IMG/VR virus record: IMGVR_UViG_3300012933_000331
Span: 38,070 to 102,069 of that record
DNA: 64,000 nucleotides
Reading direction: 5' to 3' (one strand)
Source of the DNA: a virus
Lineage: Duplodnaviria > Heunggongvirae > Uroviricota > Caudoviricetes
Position numbers and translations under genes: made by a program. Below the pieces are notes generated by a model. That model was not told the origin of the DNA. It saw only the letters and a list, made by a program, of their open reading frames with translations, and did not search any database. Shown here in pieces: positions 23,760-48,269 of this stretch. Position 1 is the stretch's first letter. Each line of letters begins with the position of its first letter.

Positions 23760-24870
23760 AGATTGGGTGACAGCGGTTTAACAATACCATTTGATTTGTT
23801 AAATACGTCTTAATTGTGGGAAATACCGAGCCACAGCCCTTAGTGCCTATAATAAATTGTTTAGACAGTGCTAGCCTGGTGTGCTAGGAGTGTCGTGTAG
23901 ATAATCCGATTAGTAGGATTCGGCCGAATCGTCGAACATCGTAATGCTACAACCACGGCCTAGGCTTTGCTAAGCAATTTATTATGGGCGTTATGAGGTC
24001 TGCATTTATTGCAGTATAACAACTTGATGGTGACCGAATTCTCTAGTCACCGCCCACCAACCCTCTGATGAGCCAGTGCAAGTCTGGCGAAACTCTAAGG
24101 CTCGGGGCAATTTGCAGTGTAGCTCCCACTACGCTCGTTGCCACACCTTAGGGTCAGGAACCCAATGAAAACTGGAAGGGCGAACCTTCGCGGACTTAGT
24201 AGCAAGCACAGAATACGTGCGGGTGAAATCTCTGCTTAGCAAGTCCCTGAAACTTAGTAATTGGTATTGTGCGAAACCCCAGATCTGAATCCTTGATGGT
24301 ATTCTGGCAAGGAGTAGTCCTAGTGAGCAGTTACTATATAAACTGTCGCCTTATCTGGTACCGGCGTAAAATGGTCTTGGCTCTAGAGTGGCCTACTTAC
24401 AGGCCCGAGCTTGATCCTCGTTACTGTGATCCGACCCTAAGCTGTTAGAAGTCGTTAACCCTCAACCAGCCGACCCCAAGTCGTTAAAAGCTGTGACTGC
24501 AGGCGGGCTTAATACCCGAAGCATAACCACCGACCCTAAACTGCTGAGGGGTCACTAAAAATTGTCAGCAGGTGCCGAGCGTTGGAAGCGTGGGCCGTGC
24601 AGGTCGTCACGTAAAACATCCAGGGCTGTGGAGCCGAACCCGTACCACGAGTGATGGTCGAACCCCATCAAAAGTCTCACCTACCAAAACTACAACTGCC
24701 ATAACCTAACAGCAGTCAAAGGTGTTCTGGTTTAGGGTCAGGTAGTAAGTTTATACTCCGGGTGGTGCCCGGCTATAAATCCTGAAGCGAGCAACTAAAA
24801 AAGACATGGCAGTGACGATTGCCTCTTTCAAAAGCCCTACAACGGTCGCTCCGTGTAGGGCTTTTGTTTT
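23760..24870 (+). ncRNA. About 1.1-kb ORF-free transcript unit: promoter, then ~1.07 kb with no ORF of 60 aa or more in any frame, then a strong terminator. Candidate large structured ncRNA.
   Basis: The six-frame track shows no ORF between 23762 and 25067 on either strand. The region contains three (C)CGACCC(T/C)AA repeats at 24431, 24468 and 24531 and inverted GACCCTAA copies, and ends in the 24831..24870 terminator. Confidence 0.45.
24831..24870 (+). terminator. Strong intrinsic terminator.
   Basis: aaagccctacaacggtcgctccgtgtagggcttt followed by tgttttg. Confidence 0.7.
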
Positions 24871-38177: not shown

Positions 38178-38490
38178 TCGTGTTCTTTACTGTATAATTA
38201 GTTCTTTAAATAATATAATGGCCCGTTTGCATCACTGACTTGCTCCCTAATGAGTTATATGCTTCGTAAAATGCGATTACCAAGGTAGTTGGTGGTAATT
38301 GTGGTTGTCTAACTTGAGGACTGTCGTCCAAGAGTCATAAGACTATATGAGCCACTTAGGGGTGGCCCTCATATATTAGCGTAATTGACGGTTCGGTTAA
38401 CTGGGCGGAAATCCAGTTGCCGTTTCGGTAGGTTTGACGGCCTGCGAAAAGCCATGCGTCAACATGGTAATATTGATTATGCTAATATAT

Positions 38491-38672
38491 GGGTCGGTAG
38501 CTTAACGTGGTTAAAGCGCAAATCCGGACTGTTCCTCCCTTCAGACAACGATCACCCTGCCAACCCTGCGCAACAGGTGTTCACGGTGACTAGCTCTGGG
38601 CTGATTTGCAATATACGCTTGTGGGAAACAGAAATTTTAGAGAAGTTGGTTCGAGGCCAACCTGACCCACCA
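38491..38672 (+). ncRNA. tRNA-like RNA of 182 nt. It has a perfect 7-bp acceptor stem, a D-arm, a T-arm and a CCA end, but the anticodon region is replaced or interrupted by a ~110-nt insertion. Either an intron-containing tRNA or a YrlA-type tRNA-mimic.
   Basis: Acceptor gggtcgg/ctgaccc; D stem gctt/aagc; T arm gttgg-ttcgagg-ccaac then a-cca. A candidate anticodon stem caaat/atttg (519-523 with 604-608) encloses an 80-nt insert, followed by a 36-nt 'variable' segment. The locus 38190..38800 has a promoter and no credible ORF. Confidence 0.45.
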
Positions 38673-38837
38673 TATTTAAACAGCCTGGCGTGGCCAGCGG
38701 TAACGAGACTGTGGCTCCGGTGAATGTCCACCTTGTTATGTCGCAGTAACAGACTGTTTAAATATGGGTTTAAAAATTTACACTTGTGGTAGTTGTGCTT
38801 TTCGAGTATAATTACTACTCTTTGAAAGAAACACAAC

Positions 38838-38978
38838 ATGAGAGTATTTACCAAAGTAAACGGCAATTTGTTGGTGTGGGAAGTTCAAGATATGACTCCT
38901 GAACAAGCAATCAGTGCTGTTCGTGATGAACTTGGTGTAGGTCACAAATCAGTTATCTTGGCCCTTGTAAAATATTGA
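38838..38978 (+). CDS. Small protein (46 aa).
   Basis: Promoter GAGTATAAT and RBS gaaagaaac are upstream. Confidence 0.35.
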   Translation: MRVFTKVNGNLLVWEVQDMTPEQAISAVRDELGVGHKSVILALVKY

Positions 38979-39256
38979 CTTGATTGTGCAGCTTAAACAC
39001 TGTATAATAGATACTTATTCAGCGATAGTTCCGACACTAACATAGGACTTCGCAGATAGATCAGAACAATGTGGGCGGGAGTATGCCAATTAGTGAAACA
39101 CTGTTAATTCAGTGGGTGTATGGTGAAACAGATGCACTGGTCGAGACCCTCAGATTACCAGCTCTGAGCTAACAAAAAGGTTACAGATTTCTGATCTTGC
39201 TGCCACCGACAGATCTTCATATCGGGGAGATTTCGCACTATTCTAAAAAGTGTTAT

Positions 39257-39330
39257 CTCGGTGTAGTGAAATGGCATCACCCGTGCTTTGGGAGCATGAA
39301 GCGCAAGTTCGATTCTTGCCATCGAGACCA
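39257..39330 (+). tRNA. tRNA-Pro (TGG).
   Basis: Acceptor ctcggtg/catcgag; anticodon loop tttggga; T loop ttcgatt; CCA. Confidence 0.7.
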
Positions 39331-39701
39331 TATTGTTGTGGCCTTTGCTAGATTCCGGTTCAGTCTCGGAGCTTTACAAGAAGAAGTGGCCTTGCTTTCT
39401 AGATAAGCATTGTCTATACCTTGAGCTTAATATATATCAAGAAGTAATTGATCTATGTAAAATTAAGCCGATGCCTTAGCGGGTGTGGTAGTAAACAAAG
39501 GCTACAACAATATGGTAATTAAGTCTATCTCAATAGTTCAAAGTCTATATGCAGACCACATGAAGAAAACATCTTATATAACATATAAAGATGCTAAAGG
39601 TCATGAAATAGTCAGACAAGTTGTTGAGCAGTCTGTTACCTACAGTAAGTTCCCTGTGGCTGGAAACGGCAAGGGCTTATATGTAGATTTAGTAGTATAA
39701 T

Positions 39702-40128: not shown

Positions 40129-40203
40129 GGACGTATAACTTAACGGCTAAAGTAGTGGGCTTTTAACCTACAAATCAGAGTTCGATTCTCTGTGCGTCTA
40201 CCA
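40129..40203 (+). tRNA. tRNA-Lys (TTT).
   Basis: Anticodon stem gtggg/cctac with loop cttttaa; T arm cagag-ttcgatt-ctctg; CCA. Confidence 0.7.
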
Positions 40204-40318
40204 TATTTGAGCATATTAGCAGATGGCGTTCAACCACTTGTTTAATCCTTGCAAGGCAACACGTTTACGGGAGCAAAGTACAAGTTCCAAAAGTGGATGC
40301 TAGTGTGCTCAAATATGG
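40201..40318 (+). repeat. Conserved inverted-repeat element, copy A. CCATATTTGAGCATAT, ~85-nt loop, then TAGTGTGCTCAAATATGG.
   Basis: Homologous to the elements at 46631..46740 and 47075..47137. The G/C to T/A change between copies is compensatory. Confidence 0.5.
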
Positions 40319-40325
40319 TATTTAC

Positions 40326-40417
40326 GGCTCTATAGTTTAATGGTAAAACGGCGGATTTATATCCCGTAAGCAACAGATAATTGGTTCATCTGGGTTCGAG
40401 TCCCGGTGGAGCTACCA
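40326..40417 (+). tRNA. Type-II tRNA (92 nt) with an ambiguous anticodon. It reads TAT by standard numbering, but the anticodon stem has a mismatch.
   Basis: Acceptor ggctcta/tggagct; T arm ctggg-ttcgagt-cccgg; CCA; ~22-nt variable arm. The loop tttatat does not match any canonical type-II isoacceptor. Confidence 0.45.
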
Positions 40418-40422
40418 AATAC

Positions 40423-40510
40423 GGAACACTGGCCGACCGGTTAAGGCATCAGATTGCTAATCTGACATTCAGTAATGGGTGAGTAGGTTCGATTCCTACG
40501 TGTTCCGCCA
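40423..40510 (+). tRNA. tRNA-Ser (GCT), type II.
   Basis: Acceptor ggaacac/gtgttcc; anticodon stem tcaga/tctga with loop ttgctaa; CCA. Confidence 0.7.
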
Positions 40511-40517
40511 AATTCAT

Positions 40518-40591
40518 GGTGTTTCTAGTGTAGTGGCAGCACTGCTGTCTGTGAAACAGTAAGCCAGGGTTCGATTCCCGGATTCACCCCA
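40518..40591 (+). tRNA. tRNA-His (GTG), probable. The acceptor stem has two U·U mismatches as I parsed it.
   Basis: Anticodon stem gctgt/acagt with loop ctgtgaa; T loop ttcgatt; discriminator C; a possible G-1. Confidence 0.45.
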
Positions 40592-40601
40592 AAAGGTTTT
40601 T

Positions 40602-40820
40602 ATGTCAGAAATTCAAGTATTACTAGATAAAGAAGCCAACCTAGCCAATCGTCGTAGCTTAGTGCACAAACAAATTGTGGTACTACGTGGGGAAACTCCT
40701 CCAGCGTGCTGGGGTAACGATGATTGCTCAACCAATATTATGTCACAATGCCCTTGGCGCATTGACTGTGACGGTCATGAAGCCGAACAGTGGCAGTCAA
40801 TTAATAGCTGGCAATTCTAA
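40602..40820 (+). CDS. Cys-rich hypothetical protein (72 aa).
   Basis: Track ORF lying between tRNAs. Confidence 0.35.
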   Translation: MSEIQVLLDKEANLANRRSLVHKQIVVLRGETPPACWGNDDCSTNIMSQCPWRIDCDGHEAEQWQSINSWQF

Positions 40821-40895
40821 GCCGATGTAGCTCAGTTGGTAGAGCAGCGGATTGAAAATCCGTGTGTCACTGGTTCGACCCCAGTCTTCGGCACC
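40821..40895 (+). tRNA. tRNA-Phe (GAA).
   Basis: D arm gctcagttggtagagc; anticodon loop ttgaaaa; T loop ttcgacc; CCA. Confidence 0.7.
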
Positions 40896-41076
40896 AAGTA
40901 TTTATAAGTTTGACCCTAAGCTGGAGTAGTTCTCTAGTCCTTTACCAACGGCCTAACTAGCCTAGTAGTTCTATAGGCCAACGCCTCGGCTCATACTCGA
41001 CCGTAGTTGGGGTTAAACTTATAAATATAGACTTGATTGTACAGCCTATTTGTTGTATAATTATCTTTTACGCAAT

Positions 41077-41151
41077 ACTGCTATCGTCTATCGGTTAGGA
41101 CACCGGGTTTTCAACCCGATAAGAGGGGTTCGACTCCCCTTAGCAGTACCA
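41077..41151 (+). tRNA. tRNA-Glu (TTC).
   Basis: Acceptor actgcta/tagcagt; anticodon loop ttttcaa; T arm agggg-ttcgact-cccct; CCA. Confidence 0.6.
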
Positions 41152-41156
41152 CACAC

Positions 41157-41231
41157 ACTGGGGTAGCTCAGCGGCAGAGCACTCGCTTGATAAGCGATAG
41201 GTCGAGGTCTCGGAATCCTCCCTCAGTACCA
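41157..41231 (+). tRNA. tRNA-Ile (GAT).
   Basis: Acceptor actgggg/cctcagt; D arm gctcagcggcagagc; anticodon loop ttgataa; CCA. Confidence 0.6.
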
Positions 41232-41333
41232 GATAACTTCTCCCGAAGTTACAGTCCAGGACACGCGGACTCAAAAACGATGTGGAAGTGGGTGGAAGCC
41301 CCACACTTTTACACACAACACACAGGAGATACT

Positions 41334-41564
41334 ATGAGTAAATCACCTTTTGAAATTCGTCTTGAAATCCTCAAGATGACCGCAGAGCTTATGCAAGCTG
41401 AGTATGAATCCAACATGGAGTTCATTACCGAAATGCAAGAAAACCTGGCTGACAAGGGAATGAACACCCAGGCTATGATTGAAAAATTCATGCCCAAGCC
41501 TTTTGACTTCCAAGAAATGCTGGAAAAGTCCAAGAAGTTTTACGAGTTTGTAAATGCTAAGTGA
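41334..41564 (+). CDS. Hypothetical protein (76 aa).
   Basis: RBS caggagat precedes the ATG. Confidence 0.45.
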   Translation: MSKSPFEIRLEILKMTAELMQAEYESNMEFITEMQENLADKGMNTQAMIEKFMPKPFDFQEMLEKSKKFYEFVNAK

Positions 41565-41568
41565 TTTA

Positions 41569-41709
41569 ATGAAGAAACTTCAGGATGTGTTTAGACCATA
41601 CACATTTGAAGATTTCGTCAAAGATCAAAACCCACAAACTTGGTCAGAATTAAAAGAACTAGAGCGTACTTGGTATCGTGCCAAGGACGACTTTAAGAAA
41701 ATGTATTAA
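41569..41709 (+). CDS. Small protein (46 aa).
   Basis: Tight spacing with the preceding gene. Confidence 0.35.
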   Translation: MKKLQDVFRPYTFEDFVKDQNPQTWSELKELERTWYRAKDDFKKMY

Positions 41710-41779
41710 CGCGGGGAGTCAGGGTAGAGGCAAGCCTCATAAGCTCCGCCTGGAAGGTTCGAGTCCTTCCCCCGCAACC
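41709..41779 (+). tRNA. Degenerate tRNA-like element. Good T arm, acceptor and CCA with a CTCATAA (Met-like) anticodon loop, but a truncated D region. Possible tRNA-Met pseudogene or an unusual tRNA.
   Basis: T arm gaagg-ttcgagt-ccttc; 3' ccccgca-a-cca; only 71 nt; anticodon stem has 3 bp. Confidence 0.3.
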
Positions 41780-42200
41780 AATACGGCCTTCCAGCACTCT
41801 AGCGAGCTGCTTAGTGAACTGGTAAAATCGGCACTTGGCCTGCCACCATATTTTGACAATAGATACGATTGCTTATCTGAGGAAACTCGCCGGTGTATCC
41901 CGTCTATGTGTGGATATAAGCACCACGCTACATTGTCATTGCAGGCTTGTAAACAAATCAGTGCTAATACCACTGTCCTGCGTCCGTTGAAGCGAAAACA
42001 AGATGGGCTGCTCTCACGGGGTTTGATGTTTCCTGACACAAAAATAACACACACTTAAAGCTACTGTTTGCTTATGGCTACAGACTATGCCCCCTTAGTG
42101 GATCTTAAACAGCGTCAATGTCTTCAGTGTCAACGAAATGTCACGCCGGAGAATGTAACCGGCACTAATACCAGTGCAGCTGCGATGATTAAGATCGCAC

Positions 42201-42275
42201 GGACACGTAGCACAGCGGTAGTGCAGCAGGTTCATATTCTGTTGGTCGCTGGTTCAAATCCAGCCGTGTCCACCA
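42201..42275 (+). tRNA. tRNA-Met (CAT).
   Basis: Acceptor ggacacg/cgtgtcc; anticodon loop ttcatat; T loop ttcaaat; CCA. Confidence 0.7.
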
Positions 42276-42369
42276 CAAAAAATTCAGACTTGTTGTTGAA
42301 ATCAAAAGTCTGTATAATTAATGTTTTAGCGGCGAGAACAATAGTTCGCTGAACAGATTCTGAAAAATG

Positions 42370-42401
42370 AACTTGTTCTCGCAGTTATTATTTGATATAA
42401 T
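42370..42401 (+). promoter_or_regulatory. sigma70 promoter (TTGTTC, 17-nt spacer, TGATATAAT) for the Y-RNA-like element.
   Basis: Read directly from the sequence. Confidence 0.45.
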
Positions 42402-42407
42402 AGATAC

Positions 42408-42725
42408 TTAAATTAAAGAACTTAGTGTAGTGATTAGATTTCAGGTACTTCATACTATGAAACTACCGTTAAATTCGCAACATTCAGCAGGTCTTCGTTG
42501 CTCCTGCCTAAGTTTAAGGTAAGCGTTCTTTGATAGGTAAACGCTTCCAGCCCTGAACTAGAGTGTTCTCTCTGAGTTCTTTAATTTAGGTATAGTGAAA
42601 GAAACAGTTACTTCACTTCTAATGACGATGTCGGTGGTTCGAGTCCACCTAAGCTGGTCTCTAGCTTATAGCTCAGTTGGTAGAGCGCGCAAATCTCTGT
42701 TTCGCCTAGTTCTTACTTATTTACA
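42408..42725 (+). ncRNA. Candidate Y-RNA-like (YrlA-type) ncRNA immediately upstream of rsr. It has a long terminal helix and a tRNA-like module.
   Basis: An 18-bp helix forms between 42409-42426 (taaattaaagaacttagtg) and 42573-42590 (ctgagttctttaattta). A T-arm/acceptor-3' module ggtgg-ttcgagt-ccacc-taagctg lies at 42627..42656. It is followed by a tRNA 5'-half-like segment (tagctta-ta-gctcagttggtagagc…) at 42668..42700. No credible ORF; rsr starts at 42735. Confidence 0.4.
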
Positions 42726-42734
42726 AGGAATCAA

Positions 42735-44045
42735 ATGTCTTCGATCAATCGTGTTGTGCGTCAGCCTGCTACAAATTCAGTGGGTACGCAAGTATCCCAA
42801 ATTAATGCAGAACGTCAGCTAAAGCGTGTAACCATGGCAGCAATGTTGTGGGAAAACCAGTTCTATATGGACGGTAAAACTCATGCCGAATTGGTCAAAG
42901 ACCTTGTAGCCAAAGTCGCTCCTGAAAAGGTTTCGGCTCTGGCTGAGGAAGCCCGTACAAAGTTTAAACTTCGTCACATTCCTCTGTTGCTTGTACGCGA
43001 ACTTGCTCGAAACGGAAAAATGCAAGCACAAGCCCTAACCAATGTTATTCAACGTCCAGACGAAATGTCTGAATTTTTGAGTATCTATTGGAAGGAAGGC
43101 AAAACTGCTGTATCGAACCAAGTTAAAAAAGGCCTTGCAGCTTGCTTTAACAAGTTTTCGGAATACCAGCTTGCCAAATGGAATAAGAATTCATCCGCAA
43201 TCAAATTGCGCGATGTAATGTTTATCTCCCACCCTAAACCGCAAAATGCCGAGCAAACAGCGCTGTTCCAGCGCATTGCGGCTGATACACTTGAAACTCC
43301 CGACACATGGGAAACTCAATTATCTAGCGGCGCAGATAAGTGTGGTACGTTTACTCGTCTTATGACTGAGAAGAAGCTAGGTGCTCTAGCTTTCTTGCGT
43401 AATCTGCGTAATATGCGCGACAGTGGTGTAGCGGATTCCCTTATCCGCAGTTATGCACAAACTGTTGACGTTAGCAAAGTCCTGCCTTTCCGCTATATTG
43501 CGGCGGCACGTATTGTTCCACAATACGAGGATATGCTAGAACAAATGATGTTTCGCAGCCTAGCGACACATCAAAAAATTCCTGGAAAGACTGTTCTGTT
43601 GATCGACGTAAGTGGCTCAATGTTCGGTACCAGAATTTCCTCAAAATCAGATCTAGATCGCTTCGATGCGGCAGCAGCACTCGCTATGCTGTGCCGTGAA
43701 GTTTGTGAGGAAGTCGAGATTTATAGCTTTAGTAATAATGCTGTGCGCGTTGCACCTCGTCGTGGATTTGCTCTCCGCGAAGCTATTTCAAGCTCTCAAA
43801 GTCACGGTGGAACTGCTCTTGGCAATTCCATGAAGACTGTAAACAGCGCGAGTTCATATGACCGTTGCATTGTGTTTACTGATGAGCAAAGCTATGATCG
43901 CCCAGGTGCTCCTCGTGGTAAAGGTTACGTTATCAACGTAGCTGCCTACGAAAACGGAGTCAACCACCAAGCATGGACTGAGATCAATGGTTTCTCAGAA
44001 GCTGTAATTGATTACATCCAGGCATTGGAGCAGGAAGCTGCTTAA
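42735..44045 (+). CDS. rsr: Ro60 ortholog Rsr (TROVE plus vWA domains).
   Basis: C-terminal vWA domain with MIDAS motif VLLIDVSGSM…GGTALGN…CIVFTDEQSY, closely matching the Ro60 pattern (DVSxSM…GGTD…IVFTDNE). The N-terminus is TROVE-like. Confidence 0.7.
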   Translation: MSSINRVVRQPATNSVGTQVSQINAERQLKRVTMAAMLWENQFYMDGKTHAELVKDLVAKVAPEKVSALAEEARTKFKLRHIPLLLVRELARNGKMQAQALTNVIQRPDEMSEFLSIYWKEGKTAVSNQVKKGLAACFNKFSEYQLAKWNKNSSAIKLRDVMFISHPKPQNAEQTALFQRIAADTLETPDTWETQLSSGADKCGTFTRLMTEKKLGALAFLRNLRNMRDSGVADSLIRSYAQTVDVSKVLPFRYIAAARIVPQYEDMLEQMMFRSLATHQKIPGKTVLLIDVSGSMFGTRISSKSDLDRFDAAAALAMLCREVCEEVEIYSFSNNAVRVAPRRGFALREAISSSQSHGGTALGNSMKTVNSASSYDRCIVFTDEQSYDRPGAPRGKGYVINVAAYENGVNHQAWTEINGFSEAVIDYIQALEQEAA

Positions 44046-44428
44046 CCTACTTACCCACGACCCAAGCCTGTAGCCAGTCAGGTGTTATAAAGGTGGGGCT
44101 CTAAGCTAAGGGCTTAGAATAGCATATGGTGCACTAGTACAGTTACTTCTATTTGGTTTGAAAACACACTGTACTTAATTATTCCTATGTTATTCTAAGC
44201 CCTTTGCGCTTTTATCGGCTACTTCTAGACTCTTAATCTAACCAAAACACCGATAATACTTATTCAAGGGCTATTTTATTATTGCTTTGGCGATAGTTAC
44301 AGTTTCATCAAAAGTTCGATTCTTTTATTACGAGCCTATTCGTTATTCGCCAAGTGGTATGGCACCGGAAGCATATTCCGGGAAAACTCTGTAGCGATTT
44401 ATTCCAAGCACCTTACAAGGAAATTACA

Positions 44429-44677
44429 ATGAGTGATGGTGGCAAAGGCTCAAAGCCTAGACCCTTAAGCGTAGCAAACGAAGAATACGCAGCACGCTGG
44501 GACGCAATCTTTGGTCGCGATAGGCTAGAAGATTCGGAAACAGACAAAACAACTCGTAATAATAGCGAAACACAAGAAGCCTTGGCACAAGGCAAGTCGG
44601 TTCCACTTTCAAGTCTGCCTGAACTACAAGAAATTGTATGCAAAGGCTTAGCTGATGGTACACTCTTCTTAAGTTAA
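44429..44677 (+). CDS. Hypothetical acidic protein (82 aa).
   Basis: RBS aaggaaat precedes the ATG; start trimmed. Confidence 0.4.
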   Translation: MSDGGKGSKPRPLSVANEEYAARWDAIFGRDRLEDSETDKTTRNNSETQEALAQGKSVPLSSLPELQEIVCKGLADGTLFLS

Positions 44678-44681
44678 ATAT

Positions 44682-44755
44682 ATGTCCCTGGTGTAATGGC
44701 AGCACGTTGGTCTCCAAAACCATTGGTCAGAGTTCGAGTCTCTGGGGGCGTGCCA
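44682..44755 (+). tRNA. tRNA-Trp (CCA).
   Basis: Anticodon loop ctccaaa; T arm cagag-ttcgagt-ctctg; CCA. Confidence 0.65.
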
Positions 44756-44806
44756 AAATTTAGACTTGTTGTTGATTTCAAAACTTGATATAATTATTCT
44801 TTAAAC

Positions 44807-44892
44807 GGAGAAGATGTTCTAATGGTAGGACAGCGGATTGTAAATCCGTGGCCTCTAGAGGCAAGTGGGTTCGATCCCCTCATTCTCCACCA
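44807..44892 (+). tRNA. tRNA-Tyr (GTA), type II.
   Basis: Acceptor ggagaag/attctcc; anticodon stem gcgga/tccgt with loop ttgtaaa; 15-nt variable arm; CCA. Confidence 0.7.
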
Positions 44893-44899
44893 GATTTAT

Positions 44900-44983
44900 G
44901 CGACTGTGGTGGAATGGTATACACAGCAGACTTAAAATCTGCCGCTTAATTGATTAAGGGTTCAAGTCCCTTCAGTCGTACCA
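44900..44983 (+). tRNA. tRNA-Leu (TAA), type II.
   Basis: Acceptor gcgactg/cagtcgt; anticodon stem gcaga/tctgc with loop cttaaaa; CCA. Confidence 0.7.
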
Positions 44984-45432
44984 GTTTAGTCTAGTAAGGA
45001 AAGTAAACGGAGAATGGGAAGCGATAGAGAGCTGAATCGAATCGCGGATACCTCACCGGCTAGACATTTCATATGGTCTTAAAGTGTTCATGGACGCACA
45101 CAGCACTGTCACTGCTGTAGATGGGGATCGTTACCCCATAAGACCGCCAAATTTATCAGTACCTATCATAGATAAGTAAGTTACGTCAAGCTGTATATGC
45201 TTATAAGCGTCTAATAAGATTTACTATACTGATTATAGAACCTGCCTTAGGTCCGTGCCGTTACGGTTAGAGCGTCCGTAACTCATCCGTTGGATACGAT
45301 AAGTCCAAGCTGGAACCGTAACCAGCACTATTATTTTAGCGTATTACCATCCATTATAAACAAGCAGGAGAGATACCTGTTGTCCAGCGATCACATCAAC
45401 GGGGTAAGGGGTAGTGTGCTAAACTAATATAT

Positions 45433-45507
45433 TCCACAGTAGCACAGCGGTAGTGCAAACGACTGTTAATCGTTTGGTCATTGGTTCGATCCCAGTCTGT
45501 GGAGCCA
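45433..45507 (+). tRNA. tRNA-Asn (GTT).
   Basis: Acceptor tccacag/ctgtgga; anticodon stem aacga/tcgtt with loop ctgttaa; CCA. Confidence 0.7.
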
Positions 45508-45636
45508 AATATAGTCTTAGTGAATAAATCAGTTACTTCTTTTAATGCTTATAAAAACGATGCCCGTTCGATTCGTGGCAAGGCCGCTGGTGCATGGGCC
45601 AATATCTGATTTTACTGTTCTAGACTTTTCTTTTGT

Positions 45637-45710
45637 TGGGGGTTAGTGAAATGGTATCACACGGGATTTTGATTCCCTTGTCACAGGTTCGATTCCTGTA
45701 CCCTCTGCCA
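45637..45710 (+). tRNA. tRNA-Gln (TTG).
   Basis: Anticodon loop ttttgat; T arm acagg-ttcgatt-cctgt; CCA. One mismatch at acceptor positions 1-72. Confidence 0.55.
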
Positions 45711-45718
45711 CACTTAAT

Positions 45719-45795
45719 GCGTTCGTAGCATAACTGGATAATGCCCTAGCCTACGAAGTTAGAAATTGGGAGTTCGAATCTCTCCGGACGCTCCA
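45719..45795 (+). tRNA. tRNA-Arg (ACG).
   Basis: Acceptor gcgttcg/cggacgc; anticodon loop ctacgaa; T arm gggag-ttcgaat-ctctc; CCA. Confidence 0.7.
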
Positions 45796-45803
45796 CATAT
45801 ATC

Positions 45804-46274
45804 ATGCACAAATTTAACTTACAAGAAGTCAAAGACTTCATTAATGCTCAGTCAGCTGAAACCAAGGTTTACCTTGGCGCTGATAGCGAACGTGTTAAAG
45901 TTAATGGTGTATGGCACGCTGACTATACTCTAGCAGTTGTTGTTCACATTGACGGTAATCACGGTTGCAAAATCTTTGGTTCAGTAACTCGTGAACGCGA
46001 CTTTGACCAAAAGGTGTCGAAACCAGCACTTCGCTTAATGCAAGAAGTATATAAGGTTTCAGACCTATTTCATGAACTTTCAGATGTACTACAAGATCGT
46101 CACGTTGAAGTTCACCTAGATATTAACCCCAACCTAATGTACGGTTCTAGCTGTGTTGTTCAACAAGCTATTGGCTATATCAAAGGTACTTGTAATGTTG
46201 ATGCTCAAGTAAAGCCCAACGCTTTTGCAGCAAGCTATGCTGCTGACCGATTAAAATTTGTATTGGCTAACTAA
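45804..46274 (+). CDS. Hypothetical protein (156 aa).
   Basis: Track ORF. Confidence 0.5.
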   Translation: MHKFNLQEVKDFINAQSAETKVYLGADSERVKVNGVWHADYTLAVVVHIDGNHGCKIFGSVTRERDFDQKVSKPALRLMQEVYKVSDLFHELSDVLQDRHVEVHLDINPNLMYGSSCVVQQAIGYIKGTCNVDAQVKPNAFAASYAADRLKFVLAN

Positions 46275-46479
46275 AATGTCCGACCGCTTCGACCTAGAAC
46301 AAAATATCATGCAATGCTGGAATGTTTGTGATGACATTCAGCTGATGCTTGATATGTATGATAAGCTGGACGAAGATGCCAAGCAAAACTATTTGATCGG
46401 ACTCAAACAAATGTATCAAATGAAGTTTGAGCGATTATGGGACAACTTTGAAGGTTGTATTCGTCGTAAACAAATTTAA
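46258..46479 (+). CDS. Hypothetical protein (73 aa).
   Basis: Track ORF overlapping the previous stop. Confidence 0.4.
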   Translation: MYWLTKMSDRFDLEQNIMQCWNVCDDIQLMLDMYDKLDEDAKQNYLIGLKQMYQMKFERLWDNFEGCIRRKQI

Positions 46480-46480
46480 T

Positions 46481-46555
46481 GTAGGTGTGGCGGAACGGCT
46501 ACGCGTCGGATTGCAAATCCGTTCTATGCAGGTTCGAGTCCTGTCACCTACTCCA
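46481..46555 (+). tRNA. tRNA-Cys (GCA).
   Basis: Acceptor gtaggtg/cacctac; anticodon loop ttgcaaa; T loop ttcgagt; CCA. Confidence 0.65.
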
Positions 46556-46557
46556 AT

Positions 46558-46633
46558 GCCGGTTTAGCTCAGTTGGTAGAGCAACTCCCTTGTAACGAGA
46601 AGGTCGCGTGTTCGATTCATGCAACCGGCACCA
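46558..46633 (+). tRNA. tRNA-Thr (TGT).
   Basis: Acceptor gccggtt/aaccggc; D arm gctcagttggtagagc; anticodon loop cttgtaa; T loop ttcgatt; CCA. Confidence 0.6.
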
Positions 46634-46740
46634 TATTTTAGCATATTACTTGCCACTTAATGCATATATGTGGAGTAACGCGCGCACACCTTCCACGGGT
46701 AATCAGGAGCACCTGACATGGGTAGTATGCTAAAATATGG
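46631..46740 (+). repeat. Conserved inverted-repeat element, copy B. CCATATTTTAGCATAT, ~75-nt loop, then TAGTATGCTAAAATATGG. Its right arm is the 5' end of the tmRNA acceptor piece.
   Basis: Covaries with copy A (40201..40318). Identical 12- and 14-mers recur at 47077..47088 and 47122..47135. Confidence 0.5.
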
Positions 46741-47090
46741 TTGTATGAAGCAGACAGAAACAGGTTCTGGACGCGGGTTCGAGTCCCGCCAGCTCCACCA
46801 TAAGCGTATTTAAGGGGGTTCGAGTCCTCTCTATAAAACTGGTAGTTGTAAGTAATACGCTTTTGATGGGGCTGCATTTGGTTTCGACAGGGCAAAGAGT
46901 AAACAAGTAGACAACTCGGCAATGTAGAAGCCGTAGGGTTAGGGATTCCTGGCCGCAGAAGCAAAACAAAAATAAACGCAAACGATACACAGTTCGCATT
47001 GGTAGCCTAACAGCCGCCTAGGGTTTTGTCAGGTTTTCCTCGTAACAGAATAAACCTGACCCTAAACCAACATAAATTTTAGCATATTGA
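46721..47090 (+). ncRNA. ssrA: Circularly permuted (two-piece) tmRNA gene. The acceptor piece (…T arm, CCAGCUCCACCA) is at ~46721..46800, an intervening segment at 46801..46867, and the coding piece (GGGGCUG…tag ORF…) at 46868..~47090.
   Basis: The 3' hallmark ctggacgcgggttcgagtcccgccagctccacca ends at 46800, upstream of the 5' hallmark ggggctgcatttggtttcgacaggg beginning at 46868. Acceptor pairing ggggctg/cagctcc keeps G3:U70. The resume codon and tag GCA AAC GAT ACA CAG TTC GCA TTG GTA GCC TAA (46978..47010) encode (A)ANDTQFALVA, preceded by …gcaaaacaaaaataaac as in E. coli tmRNA. No T arm or acceptor follows the tag. A putative P2 pairing joins 46722-46735 with 47077-47088. Confidence 0.7.
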
Positions 47091-47149
47091 ACCACATATG
47101 GCAATCAGAGCCGGACTGTCGTAGTATGCTAAAATTTATGAAGGAAACC

Positions 47150-47737
47150 ATGAAATACACAAACATTCTCGACCCTAAATTGTTTCAGTCGGACAAATAC
47201 TCAAACAATTTCACCAAGCCAGTCGCACACATTCATGAGTTTTATCTTAGCGGGCCAATTTGTGACGCTGAAGAATACATTGAGTGGTTTGACGTTATTC
47301 GTAACGCATCAGCAACTGACACAATTCGCATTTACATCAATAGCCCTGGTGGTGACCTATTTACTACACTACAGTTCTTGCGAGTAATGTCGGACACAGA
47401 TGCTACTGTTGTTTGTAGTGTAGAAGGCGCTTGTATGAGTGCAGCTACCATGATCTTCCTACACGGTCATAGTCAAGAAGTTACTCCACATAGCTTGTTT
47501 ATGTTTCACAACTATAGTGCCGGAACATTTGGCAAAGGCGGCGAAATGTACGATCAGCTGCAGTTTGAACGTACTTGGTCAGAAAACTTTATGACTGAAG
47601 TGTATCAAGGCTTTTTGACACCTGAAGAAATCTCCTCAATGATGCACAACAAAGACATTTGGATGGGTTCTGAAGAAGTTGTCCGTCGTCTAACAGCCAT
47701 GCAAGCACAGCGTGAAGCTGAAGCAGCACAAGAATAA
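47150..47737 (+). CDS. clpP: ClpP-like serine protease (S14 family).
   Basis: …IYINSPGGDLFTTLQFL…VEGACMSAATMIFLHGH… matches ClpP signatures (INSPGG, GxAxSxAxxI). RBS aaggaaa precedes the ATG at 47150. The gene lies immediately downstream of the tmRNA. Confidence 0.65.
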   Translation: MKYTNILDPKLFQSDKYSNNFTKPVAHIHEFYLSGPICDAEEYIEWFDVIRNASATDTIRIYINSPGGDLFTTLQFLRVMSDTDATVVCSVEGACMSAATMIFLHGHSQEVTPHSLFMFHNYSAGTFGKGGEMYDQLQFERTWSENFMTEVYQGFLTPEEISSMMHNKDIWMGSEEVVRRLTAMQAQREAEAAQE

Positions 47738-47778: not shown

Positions 47779-47870
47779 GGAAAGTAATGCAGCGGGGTTG
47801 GTCCTGCGACTGGCCTTGAAAACCAGGTTCTCAGAAATGGGATGGGGTTCGACTCCTCTGCTTTCCGCCA
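47779..47870 (+). tRNA. tRNA-Ser (TGA), type II.
   Basis: Acceptor ggaaagt/gctttcc; D stem gcag/ctgc; anticodon loop cttgaaa; long variable arm; CCA. Confidence 0.6.
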
Positions 47871-47876
47871 TAAGAC

Positions 47877-47945
47877 AGCACACTGGGTGTGGCACATCCA
47901 TTAAATCAAGCTGGTTTGAGTCCGGCAGCCACAGTGTGCTTTCTT
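47877..47945 (+). ncRNA. Long irregular hairpin (9 bp, bulge, 4 bp) capped by a T-arm-like stem-loop gctgg-tttgagt-ccggc, followed by ttcttat. Either a tRNA-like minihelix or the operon terminator.
   Basis: agcacactg (877-885) pairs with cagtgtgct (932-940), and tggc (890-893) with gcca (928-931). A T-run follows. Confidence 0.3.
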
Positions 47946-48269
47946 ATGGCTATTTCATTTAAAAACATCAAAGACCCTAAACTGGGGATAACTGATACAA
48001 TCACATTTGGTAAACTAAAAGGTTGCCGTGTATGCGATGTAGCCCAAGATCATTACGAATACTTGATTTGGGCTGAAAAGTCCGGTTACGTTAAGTTTCA
48101 AACCGAGGCTATTGAGCTGATTCAAGAGCAGGCTAGTTTTGCCCGTTGGCAGATACATGAAGCCGAAGAAGTTGCCCCATACATGGATGGCAACAAATAC
48201 GAATACTTGGCAGAAATTGCCAGTCGTCAAGACTATGACACAAGTTTTGAAGATGATGTTCCATTTTAA
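47946..48269 (+). CDS. Hypothetical protein (107 aa).
   Basis: Track ORF 47889..48269 trimmed to the first ATG after the hairpin. Confidence 0.45.
   Translation: MAISFKNIKDPKLGITDTITFGKLKGCRVCDVAQDHYEYLIWAEKSGYVKFQTEAIELIQEQASFARWQIHEAEEVAPYMDGNKYEYLAEIASRQDYDTSFEDDVPF

What the first reader, a model, noticed from the sequence alone, without database searches (positions are those of the whole stretch)
40201..47137. Conserved long-loop inverted-repeat element with a compensatory base change, recurring next to tRNAs and tmRNA
Three copies were found: 40201-40318, 46631-46740 and 47075-47137. The arms are CCATATTT(G/T)AGCATAT and TAGT(G/A)TGCT(C/A)AAATATGG. Where the left arm has G the right arm has C; where it has T the right arm has A. 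Base pairing is thus preserved across copies. Two copies begin exactly at a tRNA CCA end (tRNA-Lys and tRNA-Thr). The pattern suggests a selected RNA structure, such as a processing signal, a transcript stabiliser or a mobile mini-element, rather than random repeats. Two copies also bracket the tmRNA pieces.
Basis: seen in the sequence. Interest (0 to 1): 0.55.

Follow-up and report, generated by a model that had tools for sequence, protein, structure and literature searches.

The report
Hairpin RNA cassettes after phage tRNAs
In the tRNA/tmRNA gene array of an uncultivated T5-like phage, a conserved ~20-bp RNA stem that starts at the CCA end of a tRNA encloses interchangeable small structured RNAs; it is a real, undescribed RNA element, most likely a cut-out signal that separates the stable RNAs of a long transcript.

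Summary
Three hairpins (40199-40320, 46630-46741, 47071-47140) share arms CCAUAUUUNAGCAUAYU / AGURUGCUNAAAUAUGG. Two start on a tRNA CCA end, and two flank the permuted tmRNA. A fourth, degenerate copy lies at 45329-45430.

The same element occurs in about 30 related viral and metagenomic contigs. The variable arm position shows G:C, U:A and A:U. In the orientation of the neighbouring tRNA, non-Watson-Crick stem positions are 33 G·U against 1 A·C. The helix is therefore selected in the sense RNA, not in DNA.

The element belongs to a wider class. In this phage clade, 41 of 277 distinct tRNA 3' contexts carry an uninterrupted 16-24-bp helix anchored on the CCA; shuffled controls give none.

Arms and interiors assort independently. 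Where flanking tRNAs are 94-100% identical, the arms are kept and the interior is replaced by unrelated sequence.

No Rfam family matches. The element is not a Y RNA, a theta/HDV-like ribozyme, a MITE or an intrinsic terminator.

Best reading, by inference: it is a double-stranded processing and insulation stem, probably cut by host RNase III. Cutting would free the CCA-3'OH end and the tmRNA ends and release a capped small RNA, comparable to T5's stable RNAs of unknown function.

The parts
40199..40320 (+). Copy 1. 23-bp closing helix (40199-40221 / 40298-40320) whose first pairs include nt 72, the discriminator and the CCA of tRNA-Lys. 76-nt 'type A' interior with three small hairpins. Ends 5 nt before tRNA-Ile(UAU).
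   Evidence: MFE -45.2, z -5.6; interior conserved in 8 orthologues with 2 compensatory pairs
46630..46741 (+). Copy 2. 23-bp closing helix (46630-46652 / 46719-46741) starting on the CCA of tRNA-Thr(UGU). 66-nt 'type C' interior. The 3' arm abuts and overlaps the first G's of the tmRNA acceptor piece.
   Evidence: type C interior also in L337 and L317, with compensatory changes
47071..47140 (+). Copy 3. 19-bp closing helix (47071-47089 / 47122-47140) starting 6 nt after the tmRNA coding piece. 32-nt 'type D' interior. Followed by a Shine-Dalgarno sequence (AAGGAAA) and the ATG at 47150 of a ClpP-like ORF. There is no CCA upstream, and correspondingly no CC/GG at the stem base.
   Evidence: the same interior lies upstream of the tmRNA in L336 and L325
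45329..45430 (+). Degenerate fourth copy (TATTATTTTAGCGTATTACC / GGTAGTGTGCTAAACTAATA; one mismatch, three G.U). It ends 2 nt before tRNA-Asn.
   Evidence: weak on energy alone, z -1.7; positional counterparts with 18-23-bp stems in L033 and L078
40129..40203 (+). tRNA-Lys(UUU). Its 3' ACCA forms the base of copy 1.
46558..46633 (+). tRNA-Thr(UGU) with a weakened anticodon stem; ARAGORN calls it Tyr. Its CCA forms the base of copy 2.
46739..47065 (+). Permuted (two-piece, beta-proteobacterial type) tmRNA gene, flanked by copies 2 and 3.
   Evidence: (112 and 105 bits)
46790..46874 (+). tmRNA intervening segment. It is itself a hairpin that begins on the CCA of the acceptor piece (CCACCAUAAGCGUAUU / AAUACGCUUUUGAUGGGG). 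This is the same 'CCA + helix' design, inside a molecule whose precursor is known to be processed at these points.
   Evidence: (I7)
39327..39516 (+). Same class, different arm sequence. 21-23-bp helix starting on the CCA of tRNA-Pro, with a 144-nt interior.
   Evidence: orthologues show GTGGCC/GGCTAC -> ATAGCT/AGCTAT -> GTAACT/AGTTAC
40898..41028 (+). Same class. 22-bp helix starting 2 nt after the CCA of tRNA-Phe, followed by a promoter.
47867..47950 (+). Same class. 21-bp helix starting on the GCCA of a tRNA-Ser-like gene (47779-47866). The 3' arm contains the ATG of the next ORF.
38670..38767 (+). Same class. 18-bp helix CCATATTTAAACAGCCTG / CAGACTGTTTAAATATGG starting on the CCA of a tRNA-like RNA (38491-38673).
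   Evidence: compensatory changes in L194 and L033
38368..38493 (+). Same class. 21-23-bp helix CTCATATATTAGCGTAAT... / ...ATTATGCTAATATATGGG. Its arms resemble the family of the finding.

Best explanation
The element is a cis-acting RNA module of the phage's polycistronic tRNA/tmRNA transcripts. A conserved helix of about 20 bp (17-24 bp) forms in the sense RNA. Its 5' strand begins with the discriminator and CCA of the upstream tRNA, and it encloses a variable, independently folded small RNA.

Shown:
- The helix is selected at the RNA level on the sense strand.
- It is anchored on CCA ends and on both ends of the tmRNA.
- Arms and interiors are separate, exchangeable modules.

Inferred: the helix is the substrate of a double-strand-specific endonuclease, most simply host RNase III. 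A staggered double cut at or near the stem base would have four effects.
1. It leaves the tRNA with a CCA-3'OH end, or a few nucleotides for exonucleases to trim.
2. It creates the 5' end of the tmRNA acceptor piece and the 3' side of the coding piece. RNase P cannot make these ends.
3. It leaves a short leader on the next tRNA or mRNA.
4. It releases the interior, capped by the remaining stem, as a stable small RNA of roughly 60-120 nt. This would be the counterpart of the 'stable RNAs of unknown function' in the T5 tRNA region.

A specific prediction for copy 2: cuts after A46633 and after G46739 give a product with a 2-nt 3' overhang and a tmRNA that starts at G46740.
For: (1) RNA-level, sense-strand helix. 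In 31 distinct family members, oriented only by the nearest tRNA gene, stem positions are 512 Watson-Crick, 33 G.U and 2 A.C. One of the two A.C is in an unrelated chance match.

(2) Compensation. The N:N' pair is G:C, U:A or A:U. Positional orthologues with diverged arms stay paired. On 31 CCA-anchored helices, 18 of 22 pairs change on both sides, and 90.8% of cells are paired against at most 44.5% when slid (see the caveat under evidence against).

(3) A distinct class tied to CCA. 41 of 277 distinct tRNA 3' contexts have an uninterrupted helix of at least 16 bp that starts between -2 and +6 of the CCA. The length distribution is bimodal (4-13 and 16-24 bp, mode 19-23). The shuffled maximum is 12. 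The class is concentrated after tRNA-Thr (10/12), Lys (9/11) and Pro (7/13). Where no CCA precedes (copy 3 and its orthologues), the CC/GG base pairs are absent.

(4) Position. The helices sit at junctions that RNase P cannot resolve: tRNA 3' ends followed by a long spacer, both flanks of the tmRNA in 5 genomes, and upstream of ORFs. The local hairpins are conserved (17-23 contiguous pairs). The long-range pairing that would enclose the tmRNA is not conserved (5-14 pairs).

(5) Length. Uninterrupted dsRNA of 19-23 bp is about two helical turns, the size of an RNase III substrate (established knowledge). RNase III leaves 3'-OH, which a CCA end needs.

(6) The permuted tmRNA's own intervening segment has the same CCA-plus-helix design.

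(7) A cultured analogue exists. Stenotrophomonas Menderavirus phages have a 14-bp hairpin between tRNA-Leu and a homologous permuted tmRNA: GAAAGCAUCUUAGU / GCUAAGAUGCUUUC, sharing the AGCAU-N-UUAG core.

(8) T5's RefSeq record annotates eight stable RNAs of unknown function among its tRNA genes. RNA III, RNA IV and RNA 2H fold with 5'/3' closing stems. The window's terminase is closest to those of T5-like phages.
Against: There are no RNA-end data, so cleavage, the enzyme and the accumulation of a product are all inferred.

No RNase III gene was seen in the window or in the held parts of relatives. Only about 10-15 kb per relative is held, and the host is unknown.

A processing role alone does not explain why interiors are conserved and structured. 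It also does not explain why the arm sequence, beyond its pairing, is so conserved between copies.

Stem length above the CCA varies from 13 to 19 bp, so there is no strict ruler.

The Stenotrophomonas hairpin has only 14 bp. T5 itself has no CCA-anchored helices.

The covariation count was made on helices that had been selected for being helices, so its percentage paired is partly circular. The independent evidence is the orthologue comparisons and the G.U/A.C asymmetry.

Both strands fold equally well thermodynamically.
Confidence: 0.5

Rival explanations
1. The hairpins are independent small-RNA genes, like T5 RNA I/III/IV. The interior is the functional, trans-acting part. The long stem only protects the ends. 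Release is by RNase E after the CCA and RNase P at the next tRNA, with no cut in the stem.
For: Interiors are conserved and structured, with invariant loops. The same interior is found at non-orthologous sites with different stems (L189 Tyr->Leu against the second hairpin in L194; L189 Leu->Asp against L078 Asp->Asn). The T5 precedents are annotated as stable RNAs and have closing stems. The trailers are AU-rich (CCA-UAUUU), as in RNase E sites (PMC2190699 abstract).
Against: It does not explain why the stem must include the CCA, why the CC/GG pairs vanish when no CCA precedes, or why one arm sequence serves at least 6 unrelated interiors. The RNase E site would be buried in a 20-bp helix. At sites with identical flanks the interior is freely replaced, which argues against a site-specific trans function.
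Confidence: 0.25
2. The arms act primarily at the DNA level. They would be short repeated 'handles' for homologous recombination that shuffles cassettes between tRNA spacers (PeSL-like), or the ends of a miniature mobile element that targets CCA ends.
For: Interiors are swapped while arms and flanks are kept. Window against L078: tRNA 72/72, arms 18/20 and 18/20, interior 32/72. Window against L033: arms 20/20 and 19/20, interior 28/82. There are filled and empty sites between the same tRNAs. PeSL cassettes set a precedent in T4-type phages (PMC2839356, PMC4122927).
Against: The 33:1 G.U:A.C asymmetry and the compensatory changes show that selection acts on RNA pairing. There is no target-site duplication at filled sites. 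No transposase or integrase is nearby. All copies are in the sense orientation. Recombination may be how the cassettes spread, but it does not explain why they are kept.
Confidence: 0.08
3. The hairpins are Y-RNA-like ligands of the phage Ro60 (42735-44045). The conserved stem would be the Ro60 binding site and the variable interior the effector-tethering part.
For: A Ro60/TROVE+vWA gene lies in the same array and is syntenic in relatives. Y RNAs are 80-130 nt with a long 5'/3' stem and a variable internal loop (PMC4201824).
Against: 0 of 29 members contain the GNCGAAN0-1G motif. The stems are perfect helices without the bulge or internal loop. There is no Rfam Y_RNA or YrlA hit on them. A separate, better YrlA candidate lies directly upstream of Ro60 (42601-42706, 35 bits). 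More distant hairpin-bearing contigs (L017, L091, L122, L138, L330) show no Ro60 in the held flanks.
Confidence: 0.05
4. The hairpins control transcription, as terminators, pause sites or put-like antitermination sites of the many short transcription units in the array.
For: Two hairpins of the wider class lie just before strong promoters (38670-38767 before 38780; 40898-41028 before 41033). No canonical + strand terminators were found in the array.
Against: There is no U-tract after the stems. The interiors of 30-150 nt are far from terminator geometry. Copies 1 and 2 sit in the middle of units, directly followed by a tRNA or the tmRNA.
Confidence: 0.04

Closest known systems
Stable RNAs of the bacteriophage T5 tRNA region (RNA I, III, IV, 2H, 1, 2, 3, X; RefSeq NC_005859 annotation 'stable RNA with unknown functions')
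   Same: Small (about 70-170 nt) non-tRNA RNAs embedded between tRNA genes of a T5-type phage. RNA III, IV and 2H fold with a closing stem made of their 5' and 3' ends and a branched interior. RNA III lies between a CCA-ending RNA and tRNA-His, just as copy 1 lies between tRNA-Lys and tRNA-Ile. The window's terminase is nearest to those of T5-like phages.
   Different: No sequence similarity. T5 closing stems are only 10-12 bp and are not anchored on the CCA. T5 has no shared arm sequence and no evidence of interchangeable interiors.
RNase III processing stems (flanks of 16S/23S rRNA; phage T7 early-region sites; the RNase III cut in the T4 tRNA cluster). From my own knowledge of the literature; not tested here.
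   Same: About two turns of dsRNA formed by sequences that flank a stable RNA or separate cistrons in a polycistronic transcript. The products carry 3'-OH.
   Different: Here the stem closes a short local hairpin rather than the functional RNA itself; the long-range stem around the tmRNA is not conserved. The stems are perfect, lacking the internal loops of T7 sites. Cleavage is untested.
Intervening segment of permuted (two-piece) tmRNA precursors
   Same: A hairpin that starts on the CCA 3' end, pairs the CCA with a downstream UGG, and must be excised (46790-46874; also in the Stenotrophomonas phage tmRNA).
   Different: That hairpin joins the two strands of one acceptor stem and ends at an RNase P site. 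The elements of the finding follow ordinary tRNAs or flank the tmRNA, and they share a different, conserved arm sequence.
Theta (minimal HDV-like) ribozymes next to phage tRNAs (PMC10879173)
   Same: A cis RNA element that directly abuts the 3' end of phage tRNA genes and is proposed to mature the 3' trailer.
   Different: Theta ribozymes have a conserved catalytic double-pseudoknot core, cleave at their own 5' end leaving a cyclic phosphate, and are associated with tRNAs that mostly lack an encoded CCA (4.5% have one). Here the only conserved part is a plain helix, the interiors are unrelated to one another, 267 of 277 tRNAs encode CCA, and no ribozyme family matches.
Bacterial/phage Y RNAs (YrlA/YrlB; PMC4201824, PMC12135203)
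   Same: 80-130 nt, a long terminal stem, a variable interior, and a location near a Ro60 gene.
   Different: No GNCGAA/CGAA motif, no bulged helix, no Rfam hit. A separate YrlA-like candidate exists at 42601-42706.
PeSL promoter/stem-loop cassettes of T4-type phages (PMC2839356, PMC4122927)
   Same: Short conserved repeated motifs that flank variable modules and are associated with modular replacement between close relatives.
   Different: PeSLs flank protein-coding ORFs and act as promoter plus terminator. Here the two repeats are the two strands of one RNA helix, and the cargo is a small non-coding RNA.

Membership tests
Any Rfam 15 family | Covariance-model match at or near the gathering score | tested here: not met
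   No hit on any copy at E<=1 in 16 kb, at E<=10 on copy 1 alone, or at E<=5 on 38180-39530.
Y RNA / YrlA-YrlB | GNCGAAN0-1G (CGAA) Ro60-binding motif near the 5' end or in the bulge | tested here: not met
   0 of 29 distinct members; motif definition from PMC4201824 and PMC12135203.
Y RNA / YrlA-YrlB | Long 5'/3' stem with a large internal loop; encoded within a few kb of Ro60 on the same strand | tested here: inconclusive
   The stem, the loop and the proximity to Ro60 are present in the window. However, the stems lack the bulge, and distant members lie on contig pieces with no Ro60 in reach.
Y RNA / YrlA-YrlB | Binding to Ro60 | not testable with these tools
   Needs EMSA or RIP.
Theta / HDV-like ribozyme | Conserved nested double-pseudoknot core with cleavage at its own 5' end | tested here: not met
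   No HDV-like Rfam hit. The first ~20 nt pair with the last ~20 nt, which is incompatible with the P1/P2 topology. Interiors are of at least 6 unrelated types.
Theta / HDV-like ribozyme | Position within +/-5 nt of a phage tRNA 3' end | tested here: met
   21 of 29 members start on the CCA. This is a shared context only.
MITE / small DNA transposon | Terminal inverted repeats | tested here: met
   Arms of 16-23 nt.
MITE / small DNA transposon | Target-site duplication at filled versus empty sites | tested here: not met
   Filled/empty comparisons for Tyr->Leu, Lys->Ile and Leu->Asp show none.
MITE / small DNA transposon | Strand-neutral decay of the inverted repeats; copies in either orientation | tested here: not met
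   33 G.U against 1 A.C in the tRNA-sense orientation among real members. All copies are sense to the neighbouring tRNA.
Intrinsic terminator | Short GC-rich stem, 3-8-nt loop, U-tract | tested here: not met
   No copy is called by the terminator scan. Stems are AU-rich, interiors are 32-76 nt, and there is no U-tract.
RNase III substrate | About 20 bp or more of largely uninterrupted dsRNA | tested here: met
   19-23 bp in the window copies; class mode 19-23 bp.
RNase III substrate | Staggered cleavage with a 2-nt 3' overhang, dependent on rnc | not testable with these tools
   Needs end-mapping or an in-vitro cleavage assay.
T5-type stable RNAs of the tRNA region | Non-tRNA RNA encoded between tRNA genes of a T5-like phage, with a closing stem | tested here: met
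T5-type stable RNAs of the tRNA region | Sequence or structure homology to T5 RNA I/III/IV | tested here: not met
   blastn with word size 7 finds only tRNA matches between the T5 region and the window.
T5-type stable RNAs of the tRNA region | Accumulation as a stable RNA in infected cells | not testable with these tools
   Needs Northern blotting or RNA-seq.

The most novel reading that the evidence does not exclude
The conserved ~20-bp stem is a portable scaffold: a common 'socket' anchored on tRNA CCA ends. A phage lineage would plug different small structured RNAs into it, exchanging them by recombination within the arms. All would be matured by one dsRNA cut that at the same time finishes the tRNA's CCA-3'OH end. 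This would be a bacterial-virus analogue of a pri-miRNA-like or rRNA-operon-like shared processing stem, serving a library of still-unknown small RNAs. The co-encoded Ro60/Y-RNA pair, or the conserved DUF458 RNase-H-like protein, might handle the highly structured products.
Probability: 0.2. Interest if true: 0.7.

Novelty: new variant of a known kind. Interest (0 to 1): 0.5.

Why it matters
How phages mature the 3' ends of the many tRNAs they express from dense arrays is poorly understood. The only phage-specific solution described so far is the theta ribozyme. The 'stable RNAs of unknown function' in the tRNA regions of T4 and T5 have stayed unexplained for decades.

This element offers a sequence-defined and comparatively well-sampled case: about 30 contigs, clear strand assignment, modular anatomy and a cultured Stenotrophomonas-phage analogue. 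It links tRNA 3'-end formation, tmRNA end formation and the release of small RNAs to one simple structure, and it gives base-precise cleavage predictions.

If the inferred function is correct, three things follow.
- A new RNA family could be added to the annotation of phage tRNA arrays.
- The long 'spacers' in such arrays would be explained.
- Tens of candidate phage small RNAs would be exposed.

If it is only a structural insulator, the element is still a useful marker of this phage clade.

Tried and rejected
(1) Known RNA families. Three Rfam searches found nothing on the hairpins.

(2) Close relatives among cultured phages. blastn of 7.1 kb against INPHARED finds only tRNA matches. Ralstonia phage RsoM2USA shares only the Ro60 gene and has no tRNAs nearby. 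T5 has no CCA-anchored helices.

(3) Bare 16-mer scan of IMG/VR. I replaced it with two-arm patterns.

(4) Genome-collection scan. Presence in bacterial genomes is therefore unresolved, not excluded.

(5) Covariance model of the stem (R1). Only copy 3 was recovered (E = 0.018), because the long variable interiors defeat the model. I abandoned it in favour of explicit helix scans.

(6) Long-range processing stem enclosing the tmRNA (3' arm of copy 2 with 5' arm of copy 3). It is possible in the window (14 contiguous pairs) but not conserved (5-6 in L078 and L146), whereas the local hairpins always are. Rejected.

(7) Small ORFs in the interiors. Copy 1 reads as a 26-codon ORF, and some stem changes fall on third codon positions. 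However, two of eight orthologues carry frame-shifting indels (alignment), ATG becomes TTG in three, and there is no Shine-Dalgarno sequence. Rejected.

(8) Phage-encoded RNase III. No ERLEFLGD-type signature was found in any frame of the window or the held relatives.

(9) Thermodynamic strand assignment. Both strands fold equally well, so this is uninformative. The strand comes from the G.U/A.C asymmetry and the gene orientation.

(10) Integron attC, REP/BIME, IS200/605 ends and CRISPR-like repeats. I considered these from memory and dropped them: there is no integrase or transposase, the stems are perfect without extrahelical bases, and there are no direct-repeat arrays.

Full report
**Context**

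The window comes from a phage. It carries a terminase, a prohead protease/capsid fusion, primase, DnaB-like helicase, NAD-ligase and ThyX. Between about 37 and 51.5 kb it has a dense + strand array of 26 ARAGORN-called RNA genes: 25 tRNAs and a permuted tmRNA.

Interspersed with these are small ORFs, a Ro60/TROVE-vWA protein, a DUF458 RNase-H-like protein and a ClpP-like protein. Many sigma-70-type promoters are also present.

The large terminase is about 48% identical to those of T5-like Vibrio phages. At the DNA level no cultured phage is close.

**Checking the observation**

The three copies are real.
- Copy 1, 40199-40320: arms TACCATATTTGAGCATATTAGCA / TGCTAGTGTGCTCAAATATGGTA.
- Copy 2, 46630-46741: arms ACCATATTTTAGCATATTAC / GTAGTATGCTAAAATATGGT.
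- Copy 3, 47071-47140: arms CATAAATTTTAGCATA / TATGCTAAAATTTATG.

The arm 12-mer is seven-fold over-represented, and 0 of 100 shuffles reach the observed count. Each copy folds into one long closing helix around a structured interior, with z-scores of -4.4 to -6.2.

Copy 1 begins with the last acceptor base, the discriminator and the CCA of tRNA-Lys. Copy 2 begins with the ACCA of a tRNA whose orthologues are tRNA-Thr(UGU). Copy 2 ends in the two G that open the Rfam tmRNA_permuted match (46739). Copy 3 begins 6 nt after the beta_tmRNA match ends (47065) and is followed by a Shine-Dalgarno sequence and the ClpP-like ORF at 47150.

A degenerate fourth copy at 45329-45430 ends at the 5' end of tRNA-Asn.

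**The copies belong to a larger population**

The same 10 kb holds at least six more hairpins with 18-25-bp stems and interiors of 42-148 nt.
- Several again begin on a CCA: after tRNA-Pro, after a tRNA-Ser-like gene, after a tRNA-like RNA, and inside the tmRNA after the acceptor piece.
- One begins 2 nt after the CCA of tRNA-Phe.

An exhaustive scan for uninterrupted helices of at least 16 bp finds 14 in the + sense. Ten are 19 bp or longer, and nine of those lie at 38.3-47.2 kb. Only 3 are found in the - sense; two are shorter versions of + sense hairpins, and the third (38670-38767) is uninterrupted only in the - sense because of its conserved A.C pair. Shuffles give 0-5.

**Relatives**

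Two-arm pattern scans recovered the element in 12 IMG/VR contigs and 22 metagenome contigs, after filtering out chance hits. Seven loci are syntenic with the window at 70-92% identity. This allows site-by-site comparison.

**Is it an RNA structure, and on which strand?**

I fixed the orientation of 31 distinct members only by the strand of the nearest tRNA gene. Stem positions are then 512 Watson-Crick, 33 G.U and 2 A.C, and one of the two A.C cases is an unrelated chance match. On the opposite strand, or in DNA, those 33 positions would be mismatches. The helix is therefore maintained in the sense transcript.

Orthologous hairpins whose arms have diverged remain fully paired.
- After tRNA-Pro: GTGGCC/GGCTAC, ATAGCT/AGCTAT, GTAACT/AGTTAC.
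- Downstream of the tmRNA: ATTTTAGCA/TGCTAAAAT, AGTTTAGCA/TGCTAAACT, AATTAAGCA/TGCTTAATT.

On 31 CCA-anchored helices aligned by register, 18 of 22 pairs change on both sides. These helices had been chosen as helices, so I give more weight to the orthologue comparisons and to the strand asymmetry.

**Anchoring on CCA**

Among 277 distinct tRNA 3' contexts in the clade, helix lengths anchored within a few nucleotides of the CCA are bimodal. 236 contexts have 4-13 bp, like the shuffles (maximum 12). 41 have 16-24 bp, mostly 19-23.

The helix usually starts 1-2 nt before the first C, so the CCA is paired. These helices follow mainly tRNA-Thr, Lys, Pro and Phe.

Where the upstream RNA does not end in CCA (copy 3 and its orthologues), the CC/GG pairs are missing. 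The 3' arm has therefore evolved to pair with the CCA and does not simply carry fixed element termini.

**Modularity**

Within the arm family there are at least six unrelated interiors.
- Type A (copy 1) follows tRNA-Lys in 9 contigs. It has conserved loops and two compensatory pairs.
- Type C (copy 2) recurs with U:A arms in L337 and with A:U arms in L317.
- Type D (copy 3, downstream of the tmRNA here) lies upstream of the tmRNA in L336.
- Type E occupies the tmRNA-upstream site in L078, L119 and L331.

The replacement is abrupt. The random baseline for interior identity is about 50%.
- Window against L078 at the tmRNA-upstream site: the tRNA is 72/72 identical and the arms are 18/20 and 18/20, but the interior is 32/72.
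- Window against L033 after tRNA-Lys: the arms are 20/20 and 19/20, the interior is 28/82, and the downstream tRNA is 93/97.

The reverse also occurs: homologous interiors sit at different junctions with different stems. Sites are filled in one phage and empty in others, without target-site duplication.

Local hairpins flank the tmRNA in five genomes. The alternative long-range stem enclosing the tmRNA is not conserved.

**What it is not**

- It matches no Rfam family.
- It is not a Y RNA. 0 of 29 members have the GNCGAA motif (motif from PMC4201824 and PMC12135203), and a separate YrlA-like candidate sits next to Ro60.
- It is not a theta/HDV-like ribozyme. Only a plain helix is conserved, and the topology is incompatible (PMC10879173).
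- It is not a MITE. There is strand-specific wobble, no duplication and no transposase.
- It is not a terminator.
- It is not coding. Orthologues carry frame-shifting indels (alignment).

**What it most likely does**

Shown: the element is a sense-strand RNA helix of about two turns. It sits on CCA ends and at both ends of the tmRNA, and it has exchangeable structured interiors.

Inferred: the helix is a double-strand-specific processing and insulating module. It sits at the junctions that RNase P cannot resolve. Its length matches RNase III substrates, and RNase III leaves the 3'-OH that a CCA end needs (established enzymology, not tested here).

The permuted tmRNA's own intervening segment uses the same CCA-plus-helix layout. 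In copy 2, cuts after A46633 and after G46739 would at once finish tRNA-Thr, start the tmRNA acceptor piece, and release the hairpin with a 2-nt 3' overhang. The released capped interior would be a stable small RNA.

T5 provides a precedent. Its RefSeq record lists eight 'stable RNAs with unknown functions' among the tRNA genes, several of which have closing stems. T4 has RNA C and RNA D, likewise of unknown role (PMC3014915).

A cultured analogue exists in Stenotrophomonas Menderavirus phages. A 14-bp hairpin with the same AGCAU-N-UUAG core lies between tRNA-Leu and a homologous permuted tmRNA.

I put this reading at about 0.5. The main rival, at about 0.25, is that the interiors are the functional small RNAs and the stem only protects them. 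The two readings are compatible in part. Recombination within the arms probably explains how cassettes spread, but not why pairing is maintained.

**Novelty and interest**

I found no description of this element in Rfam or in the searched literature.

It is a new variant of known kinds: phage tRNA-region stable RNAs and dsRNA processing stems. Three features distinguish it: CCA anchoring, a shared conserved stem and interchangeable cargo.

It is moderately interesting. It gives a concrete, testable handle on tRNA 3'-end and tmRNA-end formation in phage arrays, and on the old puzzle of their non-tRNA stable RNAs. Its function remains inferred.

Noticed in passing
window 42601-42706 (also 45518-45611 and 44105-44207): A YrlA-like Y RNA candidate lies directly upstream of the Ro60 ORF (Rfam RF02553, 35 bits, below the gathering score of 69). 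It has a T-arm and D-arm and a GACGAUG near-match to the Ro-binding motif. A paralogous stretch lies at 45518-45611. The shared motif CAGTTACTTC also sits inside the 25-bp-stem hairpin right after Ro60.
   Followed up: partly
window 38491-38673: A tRNA-like RNA with a 7-bp acceptor stem, D-arm, T-arm and CCA end, but about 125 nt in place of the anticodon arm. ARAGORN does not call it, even with intron search. It resembles the 'tRNA-like stable RNAs' RNA1 and RNA2 annotated in T5.
   Followed up: partly
window 41713-41783: An uncalled tRNA-like gene (GCGGGGA...TCCCCGCAACCA, CAT in the anticodon-like loop), conserved at 88-91% in L033 and L122.
   Followed up: no
window 47779-47866: A tRNA-Ser(UGA)-like gene with a long variable arm. 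ARAGORN misses it, and Rfam scores it as tRNA-Sec below threshold (34.6 bits). It is followed by a CCA-anchored 21-bp hairpin.
   Followed up: no
window 23839-23995: An isolated hairpin with a 24-26-bp stem and a 105-nt interior (MFE about -62 kcal/mol), far from the tRNA array in a stretch without long ORFs.
   Followed up: no
window 47930-47950 / ORF 47946-48269: The start codon of the next ORF lies inside the 3' arm (CTTATGGC) of the hairpin 47867-47950. Translation initiation would therefore need the stem to be opened or cut.
   Followed up: no
window 45804-46274: A DUF458 'RNaseH_like' protein (PF04308, phrog_11311) lies just upstream of the tRNA-Cys / tRNA-Thr / hairpin / tmRNA / hairpin / ClpP block. 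It is 78-95% identical across most of the clade (68% in a partial match in L331), which makes it better conserved than Ro60. It has no PDB or NCBIfam match. It is a candidate phage nuclease for this RNA island, but this is pure speculation.
   Followed up: partly
window 46699-47737: The phage carries a two-piece tmRNA of the beta-proteobacterial type (tag ANDTQFALVA), immediately followed by a ClpP-like protease gene. The same tmRNA type occurs in Stenotrophomonas Menderavirus phages (L340 2504-2755, 118 bits).
   Followed up: partly
window 46558-46633: This tRNA-Thr(UGU) has two mismatches in its anticodon stem, which leads ARAGORN to call it Tyr at a shifted position. It is 100% identical in L078 but only 66-80% identical to the orthologues in L093 and L189.
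   Followed up: partly
window 38170, 38780, 38980, 41033, 42290, 44757, 49176 (+ strand): A recurrent phage promoter motif, GACTTG...TGTATAAT(T), breaks the tRNA array into many short transcription units. No canonical + strand intrinsic terminators lie between them.
   Followed up: partly
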